NCBI GenBank assembly: GCA_030587475.2
Contig: JAUQYZ020000080.1
Span: 1 to 27,993 of the forward strand
Source: Candidatus Sigynarchaeum calidifontis
GTDB taxonomy: Archaea > Asgardarchaeota > Lokiarchaeia > Sigyniarchaeales > Sigyniarchaeaceae
Direction: 5' to 3'
DNA: 27,993 nucleotides
Of the stretch, positions 13 through 25,055 are shown piece after piece. Within the stretch, counting starts at the first letter, position 1. Each line of letters starts with the position of its first letter. A model generated the notes under the pieces. That model made no database searches. It saw only the letters and a list, made by a program, of their open reading frames with translations, and was not told where the DNA came from. Both the position numbers and the translations under genes were made by a program.

Positions 13-729
13 GTGCCATCTGATAGCGCGTTCGCGGAAAAGATCCACGTCCAGGGCGGCGGGATCATCAGGGAGATCGTGTTCGGGATGAACGACGGCA
101 TCGTGTCGATATTTGCCTTGCTCGCAGGGATCGCGGGCGCTGGCGTGTCGGCCCAGCAGATCCTAGTGACATTACTTGCCGCGACGATAGCGGGGGCATT
201 GAGCATGGCTGCTGGCCAATATCTCAGCGCCAAGAGCGCGAGGAAATACGTGGAAAGCGAGATACACAAGGAGCGCCTCGAGATCAAGCTCGTCCCCGAT
301 ATCGAGAAAGACGAGATACGGCGCATCTATCAAAAGAAAGGCTTCAAGGGCGACATCCTCGAGCATATCGTGACCCAGATCACGTCAGATCCCGAGTTGT
401 GGGTCAAGGAAATGGTCGCCGACGAGCTCGGCGTCGCGGAAATCGAACAAGAGAACGAGCTGAAGGGCGTGGTCGTGATCTTCATCGCATTCATGGCCGG
501 TTCAATGTTCCCGACCTTGCCATACATGATCCTGCAATTCCTCGGCGGGGACGTGTTGTTTTGGGTGGCCACCTTCGTGACGTTCTTTGGACTTTTCCTC
601 GTCGGTGCGCTCAAGAAAGTCGTGACGGGCCAGAACTGGATCAAGTCTGGCTTCGAGATGCTCATCGCGGGCACTTTGGCATTCCTTGCATCCTATGGCA
701 TAGGCTTGCTCGTCGGCGTGTCCGTGTGA
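13..729 (+). CDS. VIT1/CCC1 family Fe2+/Mn2+ transporter
   Basis: N-terminal 'IIREIVFGMNDGIVS' and 'AGALSMAAGQYLS' motifs, a cytosolic 'E..E...IY..KG' metal-binding domain, and about 5 TM helices. The start is close to the window edge. Confidence 0.92.
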   Translation: MPSDSAFAEKIHVQGGGIIREIVFGMNDGIVSIFALLAGIAGAGVSAQQILVTLLAATIAGALSMAAGQYLSAKSARKYVESEIHKERLEIKLVPDIEKDEIRRIYQKKGFKGDILEHIVTQITSDPELWVKEMVADELGVAEIEQENELKGVVVIFIAFMAGSMFPTLPYMILQFLGGDVLFWVATFVTFFGLFLVGALKKVVTGQNWIKSGFEMLIAGTLAFLASYGIGLLVGVSV

Positions 730-2279
730 TTCGCCTTTCTTTTTTCTTCTTCGTTCTCGTCTTTTTTTCTCGGGACAATTCCCTTTTGGCGTAGAATCAA
801 GGCGAAGATCACCGCAGCGATTCCAGCCGCGAAGAAGGCCAGCCAGAACGCCGCGTATTGTGCGTGGGTCATGCGCGGGACGGGCTGGTCAAGGCCCGTG
901 AAGAGCCATGGACGGTTCGTCTTGACATACATCACCCCAAGCGTCCAGAGCGTGGAATAGATCTCCACGCTATCCACGGTATACAAGATAGTCGGGATGC
1001 CGTGGGCGCGATATTCCGCGAGCCGCGCGTTTGGGACGTCGAGATCCAGGTTCACGGCATCGTAGCCCTTCGCGATGACGGACTCGACGGAACAAGATCT
1101 CGTGCAAAGCCGGCTCAAGTTTTCGGCACTGGCCGATGCCGTGTAGACCCAGGCCTTCTTCCCGAGTGATGACGCCCCCAGCATCGCGATCATCGAGCTC
1201 CTGGCCGTGTCGTGAAAGGGATGGCCGAGGGGTGGCGACTTGAAATCGATTTCGAGGATTAAATCATGTGTCTCGGAAAAGTTTATGGCGTCCTGCAAAG
1301 AGGGGACTTTCACGCCGCGGTACGACTCTGCCTGGCTTCTCGGGACGATGCCCGACAGGATCGTGCCGTAGGGATCGTCATCAGCAAACCACGACCCTGC
1401 ATCTAGTGCACGTATCTGGGAGAAATTGAACATACAAGCGGGCACGGATGCTAGGTTTGGATACACCGTCTCGACATCGGTGGTGCGGCGCAAGTCGTCG
1501 TCGTGCATAAGGAAAAAGACGCCATCGAAACTCACCTGCACGTCTACCTCCCAGCCGGCAACGCCGAACTGGAGCGATTCTTGAGCCGCTCTTATCGTGT
1601 TTTCGGGAGCGTAGTTTGAAGCACCACGGTGCCCGATGAGGCGTGGTTTGGGTGGGAGCGGGTCGCTGGAAATGGTGGTGGGCGTGAGCACGAAAGGCAA
1701 AGCGAAACAAGCCGTGTATATCGCCAACATCGTCGAAAGGGCAATTATATTGGCATAGCGTGCCTTCCCGGTTAGTTTCCTGACACGCTTTACCATGCGG
1801 AGGATCGCGGGGATGGCTTTGAAGAGACACGCGACCATCAAGACGTTGAGAGCGATGTAGAGATAAAAGCTGATACCATCAAGGAACCGCACGACGATGA
1901 ATATCTCGCCACCAGCCATGCTTCCAAAGATGATATAGAAAACATTCCAAGCAACAAGTATGACGATCGATATGGCAATTTCTACACGACAAATTTTGAA
2001 GGATATGGCATTCCTGGATAATTGACGCTTGTATCGAACGATCAAGATAAAAAACCATGTTATCAGCAGCCCTGCGAGTATTGCAAAAAATAACATATAA
2101 TTGATCCGCAAGCCGATAACGTTGCCGAGGAGCACGTTCAAATCATAAAGGTACGGCTGGAGGATGAGCAAGACCACGAACACGAAGCCGATGTCTGCGA
2201 TCGAAATGGTGCAAACCGCTAGCCAAGCGATTGCCAGGGCGGGTCTCGTGGTGCCGTCGGGTATACCTTGTCTTGCCAT
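693..2279 (-). CDS. Six-TM glycerophosphodiester phosphodiesterase, GDE2/GDE3/GDE6 (GDPD5/GDPD2/GDPD4)-like
   Basis: Intact GDPD motifs 'IGHRG...APENT', 'WEVDVQVSFDG..FLMHD..LRRTT' and 'LDAGSWF'. Five hydrophobic helices precede the catalytic domain and one follows it. Confidence 0.9.
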   Translation of the reverse strand: MARQGIPDGTTRPALAIAWLAVCTISIADIGFVFVVLLILQPYLYDLNVLLGNVIGLRINYMLFFAILAGLLITWFFILIVRYKRQLSRNAISFKICRVEIAISIVILVAWNVFYIIFGSMAGGEIFIVVRFLDGISFYLYIALNVLMVACLFKAIPAILRMVKRVRKLTGKARYANIIALSTMLAIYTACFALPFVLTPTTISSDPLPPKPRLIGHRGASNYAPENTIRAAQESLQFGVAGWEVDVQVSFDGVFFLMHDDDLRRTTDVETVYPNLASVPACMFNFSQIRALDAGSWFADDDPYGTILSGIVPRSQAESYRGVKVPSLQDAINFSETHDLILEIDFKSPPLGHPFHDTARSSMIAMLGASSLGKKAWVYTASASAENLSRLCTRSCSVESVIAKGYDAVNLDLDVPNARLAEYRAHGIPTILYTVDSVEIYSTLWTLGVMYVKTNRPWLFTGLDQPVPRMTHAQYAAFWLAFFAAGIAAVIFALILRQKGIVPRKKDENEEEKRKANHTDTPTSKPMP

Positions 2280-2388
2280 GATCCTCGTGACCAGGCAAAC
2301 GGGGAGGGTATTTGAAGATACTCACTTACGCGTGAGAGATGGAAAGGGAAAAAACGAGAATAAAACCGAGGGATAAACGGCGAGACTT

Positions 2389-2589: not shown

Positions 2590-2784
2590 TCAGAGCTCGA
2601 CTGGCTGGACGGGCAGCTTCTTGATGAGCGCATCGGCCGTCTCGGGCTCGCAAATGTATGTATAGAGCATCTTCTTGGTTCTGACCTTTAACTTGACGGA
2701 CTTGGGGCTCCGCTTCACACGGATGTCTGTTGCGCCAGCAGCGAGCTTCAAGAACTTCTCTGCGTCGGTAATGTTGCGCGGCAT
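2590..2784 (-). CDS. rpl38e: 50S ribosomal protein L38e (eL38)
   Basis: 64 aa basic protein with the eL38 pattern 'MPRNITD..KFL.LA......RVKR....VKLKVRTKKMLYT'. Confidence 0.92.
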   Translation of the reverse strand: MPRNITDAEKFLKLAAGATDIRVKRSPKSVKLKVRTKKMLYTYICEPETADALIKKLPVQPVEL

Positions 2785-6834: not shown

Positions 6835-7713
6835 TCATTCTTTATCTTTTTTCCTTGCCGGCACGATGAATGCCGGGATGTACAACCCGGCGATCGCGAC
6901 CGACATGAGGCTGTAGACGATTCGCAAGAAGAAAGCCGTCTCTTCCGTTATCTTCGTGAAGGAAGCCATTTCCACGAATATCATCAAGAAAGTGACGGTG
7001 ATGAGGAGTATAATTTGGACTGCGATCGCTTCTAGGGCTCGCGCTTGTGTTGGCTCGGTGATCGATCTCCGGATCTTGAAAATCTTGAATGCCACGATAC
7101 CCACGATGATACCGATCATACCGAGCACCGTGAAGCCGATAACAGCTATGGCGATCTCGAATGGTGAGCCATCCTCCGTGTAGGTGAGGAGCGTGACGAA
7201 GATCCCTATGACGATACCAAAAGCTTCGAGGAACAGGATGAAACCTTCGATACCATGTTCTCGCTTTTGCCCCATGGCTGGCTTGATGAAAACCTCCATC
7301 GCCACGAATGAAAAGAACATGAGGGACAGGATGCCCAATGGCATGAATGCCTTGAGGCCGACTTCGCTGATGCCTTTCAATCCTTGAAAAAACATGTGCG
7401 CCACGTTAACAGCATACGCGCTGCCTTGATAGATCGCCGAATAAAAGACCAGCGACGCCAGGTAATTGTCGACCTTCTGGTGTCGGATTTTATTGTATCG
7501 AAACGCCTCGTAGAGCAAAGCCAACGCGGCCGCCGTGCCGGCGACGATGAAAGCCACTTTCCATGGATGAAGATCAGAAAAGCCAAATATCGTGATTGGT
7601 CCGAGAGGTGGATTAACGGACAAGTCGTAAAAATCAAATATCGTACACAAGATTATCGTTGCCAGAAATGAAACTAGGAGGATCGTGTTCTGGAGCTTGA
7701 GATTGATTTTCAT
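6835..7713 (-). CDS. Uncharacterised integral membrane protein (about 8 TM, 1+7 arrangement)
   Basis: 292 aa with about 8 hydrophobic helices and a basic C-terminus. No catalytic motif recognised. Confidence 0.75.
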   Translation of the reverse strand: MKINLKLQNTILLVSFLATIILCTIFDFYDLSVNPPLGPITIFGFSDLHPWKVAFIVAGTAAALALLYEAFRYNKIRHQKVDNYLASLVFYSAIYQGSAYAVNVAHMFFQGLKGISEVGLKAFMPLGILSLMFFSFVAMEVFIKPAMGQKREHGIEGFILFLEAFGIVIGIFVTLLTYTEDGSPFEIAIAVIGFTVLGMIGIIVGIVAFKIFKIRRSITEPTQARALEAIAVQIILLITVTFLMIFVEMASFTKITEETAFFLRIVYSLMSVAIAGLYIPAFIVPARKKDKE

Positions 7714-8840: not shown

Positions 8841-9686
8841 ATGGACGCGATCGTGCTTGCCGCGGGGGAGGGATCGAGATTCTTCACGAAAATGTTCGAG
8901 CAGCGGCAATTACCACGAGGTTTAGAATATCCCATACCGAAAACCCTATTTCCTGTTATTGTGCCCCACGCGGGCACGGTTTGCAAGCCGATGCTCGAGC
9001 ACCTCGTCAACGCGTTGAGCGCTGGAGGCGTGGAGACGATCTGGGTCGCTACTGGACACTTGAGCGTGAAGATCGGTGCCTTCGTGAAAACGGCGCTTGG
9101 CGGGTCGAACGTGAAGGTCATTCCCCCGCACCCGTCGATCGACTACCGGAAAGGTCCCATCTACACGCTCGCCGGAACACTCGATTATCTCAACGAGCAC
9201 GGGGAATTAACGAAAAGCGGTTTTGACAAGATGATGTTGCTCTCCCCAGCTGACTTGATCATAGACCGCAAGGCAATATGGTATATCGCCGGGGTGCCGG
9301 CTCGCGGCATGATGGCATCCCGATCGCGTGTACACGTGATAATCGAGAACAGGTTAAGTAAAACAAAGACAGGAATGCACACGTTTTTAAAAGACATCGT
9401 TCCTCAAAGGTTCCAAAATTTATTCGATCTGGCTATGCTGGCTTGTCCCCTCGTGCCGATTGTTGCCGTGCACATCGACGTGCTCACGAGCGCGATCAAA
9501 GGCATCGCGAGGGGTCGCACGACATTCACCGAAGTGCTCAAAGATTGGCTCGAGGAGAACATCCGGGACGAACACGAGTTCCGCTCAGAGCTTAACGTGA
9601 TTCAATCGATCTATCTCGGGGAAAAATTCTACTGGTACGATTTGGATACGTTCGACAGGGTAAAGGACATGGAGAGCGTGGCTTGA
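8841..9686 (+). CDS. Nucleotidyltransferase (NTP_transf, GT-A-like fold), substrate unknown
   Basis: 'MDAIVLAAGEGSRF...PKTL.PV...KPMLEHLVNAL...GV..I.V.TGH' and C-terminal 'WYDLDT', similar to sugar-phosphate, choline-phosphate and inositol-phosphate cytidylyltransferases. Confidence 0.8.
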   Translation: MDAIVLAAGEGSRFFTKMFEQRQLPRGLEYPIPKTLFPVIVPHAGTVCKPMLEHLVNALSAGGVETIWVATGHLSVKIGAFVKTALGGSNVKVIPPHPSIDYRKGPIYTLAGTLDYLNEHGELTKSGFDKMMLLSPADLIIDRKAIWYIAGVPARGMMASRSRVHVIIENRLSKTKTGMHTFLKDIVPQRFQNLFDLAMLACPLVPIVAVHIDVLTSAIKGIARGRTTFTEVLKDWLEENIRDEHEFRSELNVIQSIYLGEKFYWYDLDTFDRVKDMESVA

Positions 9687-9817
9687 ACCTTCCTGAGGGC
9701 ACCATCTCTTGCTCGTGCCAAGCATCTATAGTCATTCGATGGGTGCGGAAATATCAAATCCCTCGAATTCTTCAAACCCTCGCCCCTATCTTTCCACGTG
9801 ATTTCTCATCGGGGATC

Positions 9818-12800
9818 ATGACTTCAACGGTTGACAGCAGCGCTGCCCTCGAGCCCGGGATGAAAGTAATAGCACGGGACAGCCCCCGGCTCGGCGTGGG
9901 CGAGGTGTTTTCGGTGGAAAAGGCACCGATCTTGCATTACAAGGTGCTTTTTCCATCTCCCCCAGTGAAAACTCTCTATCCCCACGAGATCTCGCGGCTG
10001 GCCATCCCACCCAACACCCTCGTCTATACGAAATACGGCACGGGAAAGGTCGTGAGAAAGGAAAAGAATGGCGGTGCCGGGTTCTATTCCTACGAGATCG
10101 AATTTCTCAAGGACAAGGCGAGAAAGTCACTGAAAGAGAACGTCATCACCCGCGTGTTCCGCGGCATCGCGGCAGAGTTTGATCCTTGCCGCATGCAACC
10201 AGTCGATGCAAGCTTCGTGGGGCTATTCATAAACGCGTATTACTTCCGGTATTGCCTCCCGTCTGATCCGCGATTCCAGGCCGTGTGCCACGGCCGCATC
10301 GAGGCTTTCCCCCACCAGATGAAAGTGATAAACAAGGTTCTCGGCGCCTACCCGTCCCGGTTCCTCCTCTGTGACGAGGTCGGGCTCGGCAAGACCATCG
10401 AGGCGTGCGCGATCTTGAAGGAACTTTACCTGCAAAACGTCGTGAACCGGGTCATCATCATCGTGCCCGCGAACCTGGTCGAGCAATGGCACTTCGAGCT
10501 CGATTCCAAGTTCAACCTCGATTTCGAGGTTTATGACGGGCCGCGCGTGAAGGAATTAAAGACCGGCTATCCCGGCATCAACCCGTGGACGCTGCACCCT
10601 AGGATCCTCACGTCGCTGCATTTTCTCCGCCGGGACGAGCATCGGGAGGCGCTCAAGGAGATCAATTTCGACATGGCCATCTTCGACGAGGCCCACCACT
10701 TGCGACGCTACGCTGGCAATGCCGAAACCGGGACGTACCGGAAGACGAAAAACTATGACCTTGCCGAGATCGTTTGCACCCGGGCCCGCGTCGTTTTGCT
10801 GCTCACCGCCACGCCGATGCAGCTCGATCCCTTCGAGCTATTCTCCCTTATTCAGTTACTCGACCCGACTCTATTTCCCGAATATTCGCATTTCTTGGAA
10901 TTCAAGGACAAGGTCAGCCACTACAACCTGGTCGTCCGGAATCTCGATCGATTCGGGAAATTGAACATTTTCGAGAAAAAGTACATGGATGGCATGATTG
11001 GAGCGCTCCTGGCTACCAACAAGGAGTTTTCCAAGCCGGAGAGCATCAAGGATGCATTGCTCAAGCGGAATCCGCGGATCAAGGAGGCCATCATCCGGGC
11101 CATCCGGGATCGCCACGAACTCTCCCGCGTGATGATCCGGAACAAAAAAAGGAACGTGTTCCATGGCTTCTTGCCGAGACGGTTCACGAAGATCGTGCTC
11201 ATCGAGCCAACCAGGGAGGAACTGGAGATCTACACGGCCATCCGCCTTTACATCACGAGAGTGTACCAGCGATCGATCCAGGAGAAGAACGCGGCGACGG
11301 GTTTCGTGATGGTCGTTTTCCAGCGGCTACTCGCATCATCGCACGTGGCTTTGCGAAAGACCATCCAGCAGCGTGTCGCCACGTTGCGTGAATATCAAGT
11401 CAAGCTCCTCAAGCAGAAAGCCCAGCTCGATACCGTGGCCGCGACCATGACCGAGGAGGAATACAAGAAAAAAGCTTGGGATATCGCAAACCGGATCGCT
11501 GCTATAGATGAAGACGTCCCGCTGTTGAACGAGTACCACGCCAAGCTGAGCGCGCTCAAAACAGATTCGAAAGCATCAGCACTCGTGCGGCTCGTGACCG
11601 AACTAGCTAGCGAGGAAAACCACCCGAAAATCATCGTGTTTACACAATTCATCCGCACGCTCTATTACCTCAAGCACGTGCTGGAGACCACGCTGAAAAA
11701 TGTCATGGTCGGCATTTTTCACGGGAAATTGACTAGAGAAGAGAAAGACGCCGAGATCGATAACTTTAGATCCAGCACTGGACGGACCTTCGTGCTCATC
11801 AGCACGGAAGCAGGTGGCGAGGGTCGAAACTTTCAATTCTGCCACATCGTCGTGAATTACGACCTCCCGTGGAACCCGATGAAACTGGAACAGCGGATCG
11901 GCAGGGTGGATCGCATCGGCCAGGACCACGATGTCAAGGTCTTCAATTTTGCACTCAAAGACACGGTCGAGGAACAGATCGTCTCCATCCTCTCGGAAAG
12001 AATCTTCGTCTTTCAAGAACTGGTCGGTGAGCTCGAGCCGATTCTTGTAAACGTGGAGGATGATCTCACGAACGCGATCTTAACTTCCATGTCCGACGAA
12101 GAAGCAGAATTAAAGTTTCAAATGCTCGGAAACAAGATCTCCGACAAGCTCCGGCAGCTCCAGGATCACCAGGAGAGCTTGCATGACGTGATCATGGAAT
12201 TGGAAAGTAAGGAACTACTCGAGGATGCCACGCTTGCGTGCAACGTCGAGCTCGACTATTATGAGGCGTTGAAGCGGTTCACGTCCGCCGTGATCGACGT
12301 GGCAAGCAATTCGACAGAGATGGCGATCCCGGTCGAGGCTCGTGCATCACTGACAGATGCCTTGGTCGCGAAGGGGATCATAAAGCCTTCCATCTCCGAG
12401 ATGAAGGAGGACGTGTTTTCGATAAACGAAGGAATCGCAGGAGACCACGTGGGGACATTCGACAAGGCTGTCGCGCTAAGAAACGAGCGCCTCGAGTTCT
12501 TCAACATAGGACACCCGTTCATCGAGAAGATCATCGACGTGGCAATCGCCATTGACTCGACCAGGTACATCGGCGTGCTGGAGGACACGCCAGACCGCAT
12601 TGCATCCGCATGGCAAGACCAGCGATTCAAGGTTCTTTCTGATGCGGCGAGTGCTGTCATCATATGCAACGCGATCGATTTGACCGGCGTGATGAGCCAG
12701 CGGCAAATGGAATGTGAGGTTTATGCAATCGTGCATTACGACGTGAAGAGCGTTGTGAAAGAGATCGGGCAAGTCCCGGCAAATTTGCTTTCCGAATATC

Positions 12801-13273
12801 TCGTCTCGAACGAAGGAAGGAATGCCATGGTTGGCAACCTTTCTGAACTCGTTCTTTCGACCGAGATGATCACCAGCATCATCGCGATCAATAACAAGCG
12901 GGTTTCTGAAATCATCAAGGGGATGCGCGACGATTGGAAAACAAAAAACGATCGGCTGTATGAGCAAATACGCGAGCGGGAGGAGCATTTCCACGCCTTC
13001 CGGATGAAGAAATATAATGACGAAATATCCCAATACAAGTTAATGATCGACGAGATGCGAACACGAGAGAATGTTGACCCCGACTCGAAGGCATTGAAAG
13101 CAATTGAAAGCAAGATCTCTCGAGCGGATGAAAAGATCAAGCAAGAACGAGAGATCCACGCTAAGAACTTGCGAGAAATCACCGAGAACTACCACCGGCT
13201 CGATATATCGACCACGCCCCTCGCCGTCATCGTGATACACCTTCTTAACAAGGAAAACTTAAAAAACCGTTAA
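9818..13273 (+). CDS. RapA/HepA-like SNF2-family ATPase/helicase
   Basis: 'FPHQ' Q motif, 'RFLLCDEVGLGKTIEA', 'DEAHHL', 'LLLTATP.Q', 'STEAGGEGRNFQF', 'DLPWNPMKLEQRIGRVDRIGQ', N-terminal Tudor-like repeats and a C-terminal coiled coil. ATG at 9818 is preferred over TTG at 9683. Confidence 0.92.
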   Translation: MTSTVDSSAALEPGMKVIARDSPRLGVGEVFSVEKAPILHYKVLFPSPPVKTLYPHEISRLAIPPNTLVYTKYGTGKVVRKEKNGGAGFYSYEIEFLKDKARKSLKENVITRVFRGIAAEFDPCRMQPVDASFVGLFINAYYFRYCLPSDPRFQAVCHGRIEAFPHQMKVINKVLGAYPSRFLLCDEVGLGKTIEACAILKELYLQNVVNRVIIIVPANLVEQWHFELDSKFNLDFEVYDGPRVKELKTGYPGINPWTLHPRILTSLHFLRRDEHREALKEINFDMAIFDEAHHLRRYAGNAETGTYRKTKNYDLAEIVCTRARVVLLLTATPMQLDPFELFSLIQLLDPTLFPEYSHFLEFKDKVSHYNLVVRNLDRFGKLNIFEKKYMDGMIGALLATNKEFSKPESIKDALLKRNPRIKEAIIRAIRDRHELSRVMIRNKKRNVFHGFLPRRFTKIVLIEPTREELEIYTAIRLYITRVYQRSIQEKNAATGFVMVVFQRLLASSHVALRKTIQQRVATLREYQVKLLKQKAQLDTVAATMTEEEYKKKAWDIANRIAAIDEDVPLLNEYHAKLSALKTDSKASALVRLVTELASEENHPKIIVFTQFIRTLYYLKHVLETTLKNVMVGIFHGKLTREEKDAEIDNFRSSTGRTFVLISTEAGGEGRNFQFCHIVVNYDLPWNPMKLEQRIGRVDRIGQDHDVKVFNFALKDTVEEQIVSILSERIFVFQELVGELEPILVNVEDDLTNAILTSMSDEEAELKFQMLGNKISDKLRQLQDHQESLHDVIMELESKELLEDATLACNVELDYYEALKRFTSAVIDVASNSTEMAIPVEARASLTDALVAKGIIKPSISEMKEDVFSINEGIAGDHVGTFDKAVALRNERLEFFNIGHPFIEKIIDVAIAIDSTRYIGVLEDTPDRIASAWQDQRFKVLSDAASAVIICNAIDLTGVMSQRQMECEVYAIVHYDVKSVVKEIGQVPANLLSEYLVSNEGRNAMVGNLSELVLSTEMITSIIAINNKRVSEIIKGMRDDWKTKNDRLYEQIREREEHFHAFRMKKYNDEISQYKLMIDEMRTRENVDPDSKALKAIESKISRADEKIKQEREIHAKNLREITENYHRLDISTTPLAVIVIHLLNKENLKNR

Positions 13274-23468: not shown

Positions 23469-25055
23469 ATGGTGAGTAAGTTTCCCGAGTGTGACCTCTG
23501 TCCGACATCGAATTGTGACGATGAAAAGATAGAGATGGTGCTCCAGGATGCTGATTTCACGAAATCCTTTGTTAATCACATGTTAGAAAGCAACATCGAC
23601 GAGATTTCAAAGGATTGCTATTTCATGTCCGAGGTCATCTCCGAGAAAACCGCTCCCATGGAGATCGCCGACTTCGCATTCTGCATCTACGTGCAGCTCT
23701 CCCAACTCGTCGAGATGCCGACCGACAAGCGCATGGAGATCGGCGTGCTGTTCCGGCAAGAATTCGATCGGATGGCCGAGGACGTCAGCCAGGGACGTGA
23801 GATCGCCAAGAAAAAAACCGGTGCGGCCGCGCCTTCGAAGGAAGCGCCTGCTGCCAAGAGCGCGATCTCGTTCCAAGCGAAGGCCATTGCTGCCCCCGCC
23901 GCGGCCAAGCCGAGCGCGGTCCCGGCCAAATCGCCTGCCGTTGTTGTCCCCAAGCCCACCCCGTCGCCGCGCGTAGAGGCGACGGATTCGGTAAGCCCGG
24001 GAAGCGTCACGCAGCCGGCAAAACCCGCGATCGCCAGCTCCCCCGCGGCCAAGCTGTCGTCGCAAGTCGAAGAATCAAGTAAAGACGATGCGCGCAAGTT
24101 CCTCGCGGATCTCGAAAAAGACATCGCGGAGATCGACGCGATCTCTAGCGAGGTCGAGCAACTCATCAAGTCAGACAAGGAATTGAAGCCATTCCCTTCC
24201 GATACCGAAGGATCTGCCGGGACTCTCGATGCCCGAGTCGCCGCTGCCGAGGTTATCGCAGACGAGGTCCCAACCCCCACGGTCGTCGCTTCCGTGGCTC
24301 CTGCTCCGCGCAGAGGTGGCACCCTAGAACCCGTGATTGGCAAGTTGGCCGGCGCGCGGCCCGTGGTGACAGGCGCGATCAAGGCACCCGCTGCCACGCG
24401 GGCACCGGCGAAGCCTCGGGAGCCGGAACTCGGGTCGAAGGCCAGGCCCATCAAGCTCACGCCCGAGATGCTCGTGGGTATCGTTTCGGAAAAAGACATG
24501 GCCCGTGTCGAGAAAGGTATCAAGATCAAGCGCATCGAGGCGTCGCGACTCGCTCCAAGAGTGACAGCACCCAAGCAATTGCGAGACGGGGCCATGGCCG
24601 CTGCCGCGGCAAAGCCGGCTGGATTGCCCGAAAAAATCGAGCGGATCAACCGGCCATCCGACAAGGAAAAAGCACTGGGCGAGGAGCTTTTCTCGGCATT
24701 CCAACAAATCAAGGCTCGCGAGGAGTTACCAAGCACGTTCAACCTCGAGACCCTCGGGGTCGGCACGCGTCCCGAGGGGGAAACACATGCAAAGAAAGAT
24801 AGCCCTGGCAGCCAATTTATCGCGGACTTGTTCAAGCTCTCCCCGGAGGAAAAACCAGAACCACCGAAAGCGGCAGCCCGCCCCGCGATCGAAGACCTGA
24901 CATTGAATTTCGGCGAGGAAAAAGTACCTGCAATCGAGCAGCATGCTTCCCCGCCAACCATGGACAAGACCACTTCAAGCAAGACCTGCCCATCTTGCGG
25001 GAAAACGAATCCCGCGAAAAACGTGTTCTGTGCCAAGTGTGGCGCGAAGTTCTAA
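23469..25055 (+). CDS. Cys-motif N-terminal domain / long Pro-Ala-Lys-rich linker / C-terminal zinc ribbon protein
   Basis: N-terminal 'CDLCPTSNC', low-complexity middle region and C-terminal 'CPSCGKTNPAKNVFCAKCGAKF'. Coding-like codon usage on the + strand. Confidence 0.82.
   Translation: MVSKFPECDLCPTSNCDDEKIEMVLQDADFTKSFVNHMLESNIDEISKDCYFMSEVISEKTAPMEIADFAFCIYVQLSQLVEMPTDKRMEIGVLFRQEFDRMAEDVSQGREIAKKKTGAAAPSKEAPAAKSAISFQAKAIAAPAAAKPSAVPAKSPAVVVPKPTPSPRVEATDSVSPGSVTQPAKPAIASSPAAKLSSQVEESSKDDARKFLADLEKDIAEIDAISSEVEQLIKSDKELKPFPSDTEGSAGTLDARVAAAEVIADEVPTPTVVASVAPAPRRGGTLEPVIGKLAGARPVVTGAIKAPAATRAPAKPREPELGSKARPIKLTPEMLVGIVSEKDMARVEKGIKIKRIEASRLAPRVTAPKQLRDGAMAAAAAKPAGLPEKIERINRPSDKEKALGEELFSAFQQIKAREELPSTFNLETLGVGTRPEGETHAKKDSPGSQFIADLFKLSPEEKPEPPKAAARPAIEDLTLNFGEEKVPAIEQHASPPTMDKTTSSKTCPSCGKTNPAKNVFCAKCGAKF

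What the first reader, a model, noticed from the sequence alone, without database searches (positions are those of the whole stretch)
693..2279. Archaeal homologue of the metazoan six-TM GDE2/GDE3/GDE6 GPI-anchor-cleaving phosphodiesterases (candidate eukaryotic signature protein)
Seen in sequence: five TM helices, then a GDPD domain with intact HRG, ExD and HD residues, then one TM helix and a basic tail. The basic loops after TM2, TM4 and TM6 suggest the catalytic domain faces outward. Established: this 5TM-GDPD-1TM ecto-enzyme topology defines vertebrate GDE2/GDE3/GDE6 (GDPD5/2/4). GDE2 and GDE3 release GPI-anchored surface proteins such as RECK, glypicans and uPAR. By eye, against my recollection of human GDE2, the similarity goes beyond generic GlpQ/UgpQ. 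Examples are 'LPPKPRLIGHRG', 'FLMHD..LRRTT.VE..YP.LA..PA.M.N', 'AGSWF..DDPYGT', 'PP..HPF', 'LYTV...IYS.LW..GV..V.TN', 'P..RM....Y...W' before the last TM, and the luminal loops 'YDLN.LL....G....Y' and 'E..IV...L.G....L.IA'. Inference: this archaeon may have a surface enzyme that cleaves inositol-phosphate archaeol headgroups or sheds lipid-anchored surface proteins, a possible precursor of GPI-anchor shedding.
Basis: partly seen in the sequence, partly recalled or inferred. Interest (0 to 1): 0.88.

Follow-up and report, generated by a model that had tools for sequence, protein, structure and literature searches.

The report
Asgard GDE2-like six-helix surface phosphodiesterase
This Asgard archaeon gene encodes a full-length relative of the animal cell-surface enzymes GDE2, GDE3 and GDE6, most likely facing outwards. 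A few Chloroflexota bacteria carry the same protein, the trees do not show that eukaryotes inherited it from Asgard archaea, and nothing shows that it cuts protein anchors.

Summary
Observation confirmed. ORF 693-2279(-) is an intact 528-aa protein with five TM helices, a GDPD barrel and a sixth TM, in a Lokiarchaeia (Sigynarchaeales-like) genome. After Asgard relatives, the best named hits are vertebrate GDPD5/2/4. Homology covers the whole chain (profile E 1e-104; TM bundle alone E 6e-14; predicted-structure TM-score 0.81).

Outward orientation is supported by the positive-inside rule and by two-fold N-glycosylation sequon enrichment, seen in Asgard and eukaryotic members only.

The family has three branches: Asgard (63/400 genomes), Anaerolineales bacteria (5/250) and eukaryotes (animals, an ichthyosporean, an amoebozoan). 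Rooted trees place Asgard as sister to eukaryotes plus Anaerolineae. Eukaryotes nested beside Heimdallarchaeia is rejected; eukaryotes plus Asgard is not (p 0.09). So it is an ESP-like candidate, not a demonstrated one.

No GPI transamidase subunit was detected here (89% complete), so anchor shedding is unlikely. The best guess is an ecto-enzyme acting on inositol-phosphate lipids or headgroups; the substrate is untested.

No paper found. This scan reported the same family in four other Asgard genomes.

The parts
693..2279 (-). CDS, 528 aa six-TM glycerophosphodiester phosphodiesterase (GDE2/3/6 family)
2160..2216 (-). TM1 (aa 22-40)
2037..2093 (-). TM2 (aa 63-81), followed by a basic cytoplasmic loop (6 K/R)
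1923..1979 (-). TM3 (aa 101-119)
1800..1856 (-). TM4 (aa 142-160), followed by a basic cytoplasmic loop (7 K/R)
1692..1748 (-). TM5 (aa 178-196); P195 and P200 are conserved in all three branches
876..1661 (-). GDPD TIM-barrel catalytic domain (aa 207-468), predicted extracellular
   Evidence: Z 27.4, rmsd 2.1 A over 228 residues to 2pz0
1626..1631 (-). H217-R218 (= GlpQ His43/Arg44; GDE2 H233; GDE3 H229/R230)
1542..1550 (-). E244-x-D246 Ca2+ ligands (= GlpQ Glu70/Asp72)
1500..1505 (-). H259-D260 (= GlpQ His85, second catalytic His)
1245..1247 (-). D345, third metal ligand (GlpQ Glu152): Asp in 94-100% of all three six-TM branches, Glu in 94% of the nearest soluble GDPDs
945..947 (-). W445, family signature (97-100% in Asgard, Anaerolineae and eukaryotes; not conserved in soluble GDPDs)
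1113..1427 (-). Span holding N-glycosylation sequons N285, N333 (51% of Asgard members) and N387
792..848 (-). TM6 (aa 478-496), with Y475 and W479 conserved in all three branches
696..791 (-). Charged cytoplasmic tail; its last 37 nt (with the stop) overlap the convergent VIT1 gene

Best explanation
The gene encodes the Asgard branch of the six-TM GDE family (GDE2/3/6-like). Six helices hold a Ca2+-dependent TIM-barrel phosphodiesterase on the outer membrane face; both termini are cytoplasmic and the barrel is probably N-glycosylated by AglB. Shown by sequence, structure and tree: family membership, intact catalytic residues, outward topology. Inferred: like GDE3, it cleaves phosphodiesters of membrane-proximal inositol-phosphate compounds (glycerophosphoinositol, lyso- or archaetidyl-inositol lipids) in phospholipase-C fashion, using H217/H259 as acid and base and E244/D246/D345 for Ca2+. 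Its role would be to scavenge phosphate and inositol from environmental lipids or to trim surface headgroups, not to shed proteins. Evolution: an ancient family shared by Asgard and eukaryotes, with a sparse Anaerolineae branch that was most parsimoniously acquired by transfer; Asgard is the sister group, not a shown donor.
For: Full-length profile match E 1e-104. TM-only profile match E 6e-14; the Asgard TM HMM scores eukaryotic TM regions 3-51 bits against at most 2.3 for shuffled, reversed or PF10110 controls. Nearest full-length structures in the ESM Atlas are an Asgard cluster and vertebrate GDPD5 (TM 0.81). The six-TM family is one clade, 100/100, against the nearest soluble GDPDs. Shared remodelled pocket: Glu152 to Asp, and GlpQ's Gln188/Phe190 site for sn-glycerol-3-phosphate lost in all branches. 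Ecto topology: positive-inside pattern; sequons per domain 3.6 vs 1.9 shuffled in Asgard, 4.1 vs 1.9 in eukaryotes, 0.8 vs 1.2 in Anaerolineae; AglB/STT3 in the genome; N-X-S/T glycosylation shown in an Asgard (PMC11284389). All characterised members cleave inositol phosphodiesters (PMC5576486, PMC11314389). Accessory-gene pattern fits scavenging: patchy, no conserved neighbours, present in 5 of 15 order-mates lacking inositol-1-P synthase vs 36 of 139 with it.
Against: No activity data for any prokaryotic member. Asp at position 345 is not diagnostic: two soluble paralogues in this genome also have it. The region replacing Gln188/Phe190 is variable among Asgard, so pocket identity with GDE3 is not shown. 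No link to inositol genes by neighbourhood or co-occurrence. The root among the three branches is unresolved.
Confidence: 0.55

Rival explanations
1. Function rival: a membrane-tethered general glycerophosphodiesterase or lysophospholipase D (GlpQ-like cleavage releasing glycerol-phosphate, possibly the archaeal sn-1 form) that recycles deacylated lipids at the surface. Inositol and GPI specificity would have arisen only in eukaryotes.
For: Barrel and catalytic set are those of classical GDPDs. The genome has 11 GDPD matches, suggesting broad lipid scavenging. Presence is independent of inositol synthesis.
Against: The GlpQ residues that fix sn-glycerol-3-phosphate (Glu152, Gln188, Phe190) are changed in the same way as in GDE2/3. 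All tested family members act on inositol compounds.
Confidence: 0.3
2. Function rival: a sheddase that releases proteins tethered by a GPI-like inositol-lipid anchor from the archaeal surface, a precursor of GPI-anchor shedding.
For: GDE2 and GDE3 do this. Ecto topology. Inositol-1-P synthase, CDP-alcohol transferases and PIG-L-family deacetylases are present. One preprint assigns GPI synthesis and transamidase components an Asgard origin (PMC12338589).
Against: No Gaa1, Gpi16/PIG-T, peptidase C13/PIG-K or PIG-M match in this 89%-complete genome (three of these searches had no positive control). The PIG-L family is common in bacteria. Anaerolineae carry the enzyme and are not known to make GPI anchors (own knowledge).
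Confidence: 0.1
3. Origin rival A (scored apart from function): eukaryotes got the six-TM GDE from a bacterial (Chloroflexota-like) donor, so the Asgard protein is a cousin and not an ESP.
For: Eukaryotes plus Anaerolineae is supported 100/97 (catalytic domain) and 99/92 (full length). Catalytic-domain profile score is 616 for Anaerolineae-eukaryote vs 565 for Asgard-eukaryote. Eukaryotes as sister to Heimdallarchaeia is rejected, p-AU 0.0001-0.0002.
Against: Anaerolineae copies are rare (2/400 Chloroflexota, 5/250 Anaerolineales) and less diverse (46% vs 41% within-group identity), which fits a recipient. TM bundle is closer between Asgard and eukaryotes (77 vs 46). Eukaryotes plus Asgard is not rejected (p 0.08-0.30). 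In one search Anaerolineae sit in a polytomy among eukaryotic lineages.
Confidence: 0.3
4. Origin rival B: Asgard acquired the gene late from a eukaryote, or the contig is a eukaryotic contaminant.
For: Patchy Asgard distribution; the Asgard subtree does not follow taxonomy.
Against: Asgard members form their own deep clade (100/96) outside eukaryotes and span Loki-, Hel-, Heimdall- and Thor-labelled genomes. The gene is intronless among archaeal housekeeping genes.
Confidence: 0.05

Closest known systems
Vertebrate GDE2 (GDPD5), GDE3 (GDPD2), GDE6 (GDPD4): six-TM ecto-glycerophosphodiesterases
   Same: 5TM-GDPD-1TM order, homologous TM bundle, catalytic His/Arg/Glu/Asp, D345, W445, H353-P354, sequon-rich ectodomain; 26-33% local identity; TM-score 0.81.
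   Different: Lacks the Cys-rich cytosolic N-terminal segment and the two ectodomain Cys conserved in 82% of the eukaryotic set (positions 201, 446). Separate clade. No GPI transamidase detected in the host. Activity untested.
Anaerolineae (Chloroflexota) six-TM GDPDs, uncharacterised
   Same: Same architecture and signature residues; about 36% identity in the catalytic domain.
   Different: Bacterial, rare, no sequon enrichment, divergent TM signature; branch with eukaryotes in the best trees; include TM-less derivatives (P0139, L096).
Classical GlpQ/UgpQ (B. subtilis GlpQ 5T9B, T. tengcongensis 2PZ0)
   Same: TIM-barrel plus GDPD insert fold (Z 25-27) and the His/Arg/Glu/Asp/His catalytic set.
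   Different: No TM bundle; keep Glu152, Gln188 and Phe190 for sn-glycerol-3-phosphate; only 22-28% identity.
Bacterial membrane GDPDs with PF10110
   Same: N-terminal membrane domain plus GDPD.
   Different: Unrelated TM domain: no PF10110 hit, TM-score 0.47-0.50, TM HMM score -2.3; the example examined has no C-terminal TM.

Membership tests
Six-TM GDE family (GDE2/3/6) | Five TM, GDPD domain, one TM | tested here: met
   same helix order in the bird GDE2 model
Six-TM GDE family (GDE2/3/6) | TM bundle homologous, not just hydrophobic | tested here: met
   hhalign TM-only P 98.2, E 6e-14; real 3-51 bits vs at most 2.3 for controls. Family level only; this single protein is too divergent for the eukaryotic TM HMM.
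Six-TM GDE family (GDE2/3/6) | Catalytic His (GDE2 H233/GDE3 H229), Arg, metal ligands | tested here: met
   H217, R218, E244, D246, H259, D345
Six-TM GDE family (GDE2/3/6) | One clade with eukaryotic GDE2/3/6, excluding soluble GDPDs | tested here: met
   100/100; the clade also holds Anaerolineae
Six-TM GDE family (GDE2/3/6) | Extracellular catalytic domain | tested here: met
   Computational only: positive-inside rule, sequon enrichment, AglB present
Six-TM GDE family (GDE2/3/6) | PLC-type cleavage of GPI anchors, lyso-PI or glycerophosphoinositol | not testable with these tools
   Needs assay
Eukaryotic signature protein | Best homologues outside Asgard are eukaryotic and full-length | tested here: inconclusive
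   Vertebrate hits follow Asgard, but in the exhaustive search Anaerolineae members score as high or higher
Eukaryotic signature protein | Absent from bacteria | tested here: not met
   Anaerolineae/Chloroflexota carry it, at 0.5% of the phylum and 2% of Anaerolineales
Eukaryotic signature protein | Eukaryotes branch within or as sister to Asgard | tested here: inconclusive
   Best tree is (Asgard,(Euk,Anaerolineae)); Euk+Asgard p-AU 0.08-0.30; Euk sister to Heimdall rejected
Eukaryotic signature protein | Traceable to LECA | tested here: inconclusive
   Named: animals, Chromosphaera, Mastigamoeba, i.e. Amorphea. Further unplaced deep sequences, one beside an alpha-tubulin gene. No named plant, SAR or Discoba member seen.
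Classical GlpQ/UgpQ | Glu152, Gln188, Phe190 glycerol-3-phosphate pocket | tested here: not met
   NCBIfam UgpQ 79 bits vs cut-off 264
PF10110 bacterial membrane GDPD | PF10110 membrane domain | tested here: not met
GPI-anchor shedding system | GPI transamidase and mannosyltransferase genes in the host | tested here: inconclusive
   No match for PF04114, PF04113, PF01650 or PF05007; genome 89% complete and eukaryote-trained profiles may miss remote homologues

The most novel reading that the evidence does not exclude
The six-TM GDE family arose in the Asgard-eukaryote stem as an outward-facing inositol-lipid phospholipase C and passed vertically to eukaryotes, with Anaerolineae as later recipients. 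The GPI-cleaving chemistry of GDE2/3 would then predate GPI-anchored proteins, and the Asgard enzyme could cleave GPI or lyso-PI substrates in vitro.
Probability: 0.3. Interest if true: 0.8.

Novelty: new variant of a known kind. Interest (0 to 1): 0.56.

Why it matters
GDE2/3/6 have been studied as vertebrate enzymes of neural development and cancer, and no full-length structure appeared in the PDB searches. Prokaryotic members give tractable proteins for structure and mechanism, and let one ask what the family cleaved before GPI anchors existed. For eukaryogenesis it is a candidate Asgard-eukaryote surface enzyme not named in the main text of recent ESP surveys, but the Anaerolineae branch and unresolved root keep it from being a clean ESP. 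Two single-contig Lokiarchaeia genomes carry it (G138, 6.0 Mb; G143), so a cultured host may be available.

Tried and rejected
Literature: Asgard+GDE2, Asgard+GDPD5 and Asgard+GDPD2 gave 0 papers; ESP surveys do not mention GDPD in main text, but their supplementary tables were not held, so a listing there cannot be excluded. Three non-Asgard NCBI labels (Deferrimicrobium, Nanopelagicaceae, Bathyarchaeia) match in length and all three profile scores proteins from genomes that the genome tool places in this window's own phylum, so they were not counted as extra lineages. treekit AU tests on the full alignment and one long PMSF run did not finish and were redone with fast constrained searches. 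Those searches bias p-values of constrained trees downwards, so 'not rejected' is safe and the borderline p 0.05 for (Euk+Anaerolineae) beside Heimdall is weak. Neighbourhood analysis found no conserved partner in Asgard. Co-occurrence with inositol-1-P synthase was uninformative. No sequencing run was listed. Reciprocal search with the human proteins was not run, as no tool supplied them; bird, fish and other mammalian orthologues stood in. No complex prediction was run, as no binding is claimed. The 294-306 insertion was rejected as a GDE2-specific mark.
Full report
Observation. The ORF at 693-2279 (minus strand, ATG, 528 aa) is intact. Hydropathy gives five helices before the catalytic domain and one after. 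AlphaFold2 models it confidently (pLDDT 92.9) as a helical bundle plus TIM barrel; the barrel matches solved GDPDs at Z 25-27. Pfam finds only GDPD, and the NCBIfam UgpQ score is far below cut-off. Seven of eight quoted motifs match exactly and one is off by a residue. The window is archaeal housekeeping DNA (L38e, NusA-like, Pth2, TruD, AspRS, MetAP II; Kae1-, Bud32- and RpoE-like ORFs by eye), and the closest proteins are labelled Sigynarchaeota/Lokiarchaeota at 75-77% identity. The genome is 4.99 Mb and 89% complete.

Homology to GDE2/3/6. After 22 Asgard-type hits, the first search returns vertebrate GDPD5, GDPD2 and GDPD4 at E 1e-24 to 1e-41, then generic GDPDs at 1e-8 or worse. Prokaryotic and eukaryotic profiles align over residues 8-497 at E 1e-104. 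The TM region alone aligns at E 6e-14, and an Asgard TM-only HMM scores eukaryotic TM regions 3-51 bits against at most 2.3 for shuffled, reversed or PF10110-type controls. This protein's own TM region is too divergent to be found by the eukaryotic TM HMM, so that claim rests on the family. In the ESM Atlas the nearest full-length models are an Asgard cluster and vertebrate GDPD5 (TM 0.81), with PF10110 proteins at 0.47-0.50. A bird GDE2 model shows the same order of elements.

Topology. Loops after TM2, TM4 and TM6 are basic in this protein and across Asgard; the others are acidic or neutral. This places the barrel outside. Independently, N-X-S/T sequons in the barrel are about twice the shuffled expectation in Asgard (3.6 vs 1.9) and eukaryotes (4.1 vs 1.9), and below it in Anaerolineae (0.8 vs 1.2) and soluble GDPDs. 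The genome encodes AglB/STT3, and Asgard N-glycosylation of an extracellular protein at such sequons is published (PMC11284389). Kinship among sequences inflates these averages, but the contrast between groups is in the expected direction.

Active site. H217, R218, E244, D246 and H259 correspond to B. subtilis GlpQ His43, Arg44, Glu70, Asp72 and His85; H217 aligns with GDE2 H233. GlpQ's Glu152 is Asp in 94-100% of all three six-TM branches against Glu in 94% of the nearest soluble relatives, and the Gln188/Phe190 site that enforces sn-glycerol-3-phosphate binding is lost. W445, H353-P354 and P466 are further shared signatures. GDE3 is a PLC-type enzyme on glycerophosphoinositol, lyso-PI and GPI anchors; GDE2 cleaves GPI anchors (PMC11314389, PMC5576486). 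The shared pocket change is therefore consistent with an inositol-type substrate but does not prove it: Asp at this site also occurs in two soluble paralogues here.

Distribution. The exhaustive search gave many six-TM proteins in three groups. Asgard: 63 of 400 genomes at E below 1e-60, a lower bound, in this genome's own order (41/154), two other Lokiarchaeia families (5/5, one Helarchaeota-labelled), a Heimdallarchaeota-labelled family (14/31), another family (2/12) and one Thorarchaeota genome. Bacteria: only Chloroflexota, mostly Anaerolineales, 2 of 400 in the phylum and 5 of 250 in the order. Eukaryotes: vertebrates, invertebrates, the ichthyosporean Chromosphaera and the amoebozoan Mastigamoeba, plus unplaced deep sequences, one beside an alpha-tubulin gene.

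Phylogeny. Rooted on the nearest soluble GDPDs, the six-TM family is one clade (100/100). Asgard is a clade (88/82 catalytic domain; 100/96 full length) and eukaryotes group with Anaerolineae (100/97; 99/92), with Anaerolineae unresolved among eukaryotic lineages. AU tests do not reject eukaryotes plus Asgard (p 0.08, 0.30, 0.09) or Asgard plus Anaerolineae (0.68, 0.17), but reject eukaryotes as sister to the Heimdall sequences (0.0002, 0.0001). The two halves of the protein disagree: with equal samples, the TM bundle is closer between Asgard and eukaryotes (77 vs 46) while the barrel is closer between Anaerolineae and eukaryotes (616 vs 565). The breadth in Asgard and rarity in Chloroflexota favour Anaerolineae as recipients; that is inference. 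My odds for the origin of the eukaryotic gene: Asgard or a shared Asgard-eukaryote stem about 0.55, bacterial donor about 0.3, other about 0.15.

Function in this cell. The genome has two inositol-1-P synthase matches, three CDP-alcohol phosphatidyltransferases, nine PIG-L-family and eleven GDPD matches, but no Gaa1, Gpi16, peptidase C13 or PIG-M match (weak negatives). The gene has no conserved neighbours across Asgard and occurs equally with or without inositol synthase. This looks like an accessory surface enzyme for lipid or headgroup scavenging or trimming. Protein shedding is possible but unsupported, although a preprint argues for Asgard ancestry of GPI synthesis in general (PMC12338589).

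Novelty. No paper in the library links Asgard to GDE2, GDPD5 or GDPD2, and recent ESP surveys do not mention GDPDs in their main text; their supplements could not be checked. This scan's earlier notes describe the same family in four other Asgard genomes with the same conclusion; I had reached it before reading them. Added here are the sequon evidence for topology, the shared pocket change, prevalence counts and the TM-versus-barrel conflict.

Verdict. A real prokaryotic branch of the six-TM GDE family: new variant of a known kind, ESP-like but not a demonstrated ESP, substrate untested. Interest 0.56.

Noticed in passing
window 2309-2316 (-): TATA-like TTCAAATA about 30 nt upstream of the ATG, apparently kept in the relative P0002, whose longer N-terminus is probably a mis-called start; suggests a leaderless transcript.
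   Followed up: no
window 13-729 (+): VIT1/CCC1 family metal transporter, convergent with the gene and overlapping its 3' end by 37 nt.
   Followed up: partly
window 2590-2784 (-): Ribosomal protein L38e (Pfam E 2e-11), divergent from a NusA-like, Pth2, TruD, AspRS cluster.
   Followed up: partly
window 9683-13273 (+): 1196-aa SNF2/RapA/DrmD-like helicase, below all NCBIfam cut-offs, inside a housekeeping cluster.
   Followed up: partly
window 23469-25055 (+): 528-aa Ala/Pro/Lys-rich low-complexity protein with an N-terminal Cys motif and a C-terminal zinc ribbon; not annotated.
   Followed up: no
window 6835-7713 (-): 292-aa multi-TM protein with no clear family, possibly an Asgard 7TM-like sensor.
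   Followed up: no
P0139; L096:2671-3435: TM-less GDPDs (L096 from a Chloroflexi MAG) nested within the Anaerolineae six-TM clade, apparently soluble derivatives useful for crystallography.
   Followed up: partly
L012, L013, L081, L099: Tandem duplicates of the six-TM gene in some Lokiarchaeia; other genomes carry up to three copies.
   Followed up: no
L073, L093, L099: NCBI titles (Deferrimicrobium, Bathyarchaeia, Nanopelagicaceae) of three SMAG genomes conflict with their placement in this window's phylum; probably mislabelled records.
   Followed up: partly
G000:C35:6436-7976: Two tandem inositol-1-phosphate synthase family genes in this genome.
   Followed up: no
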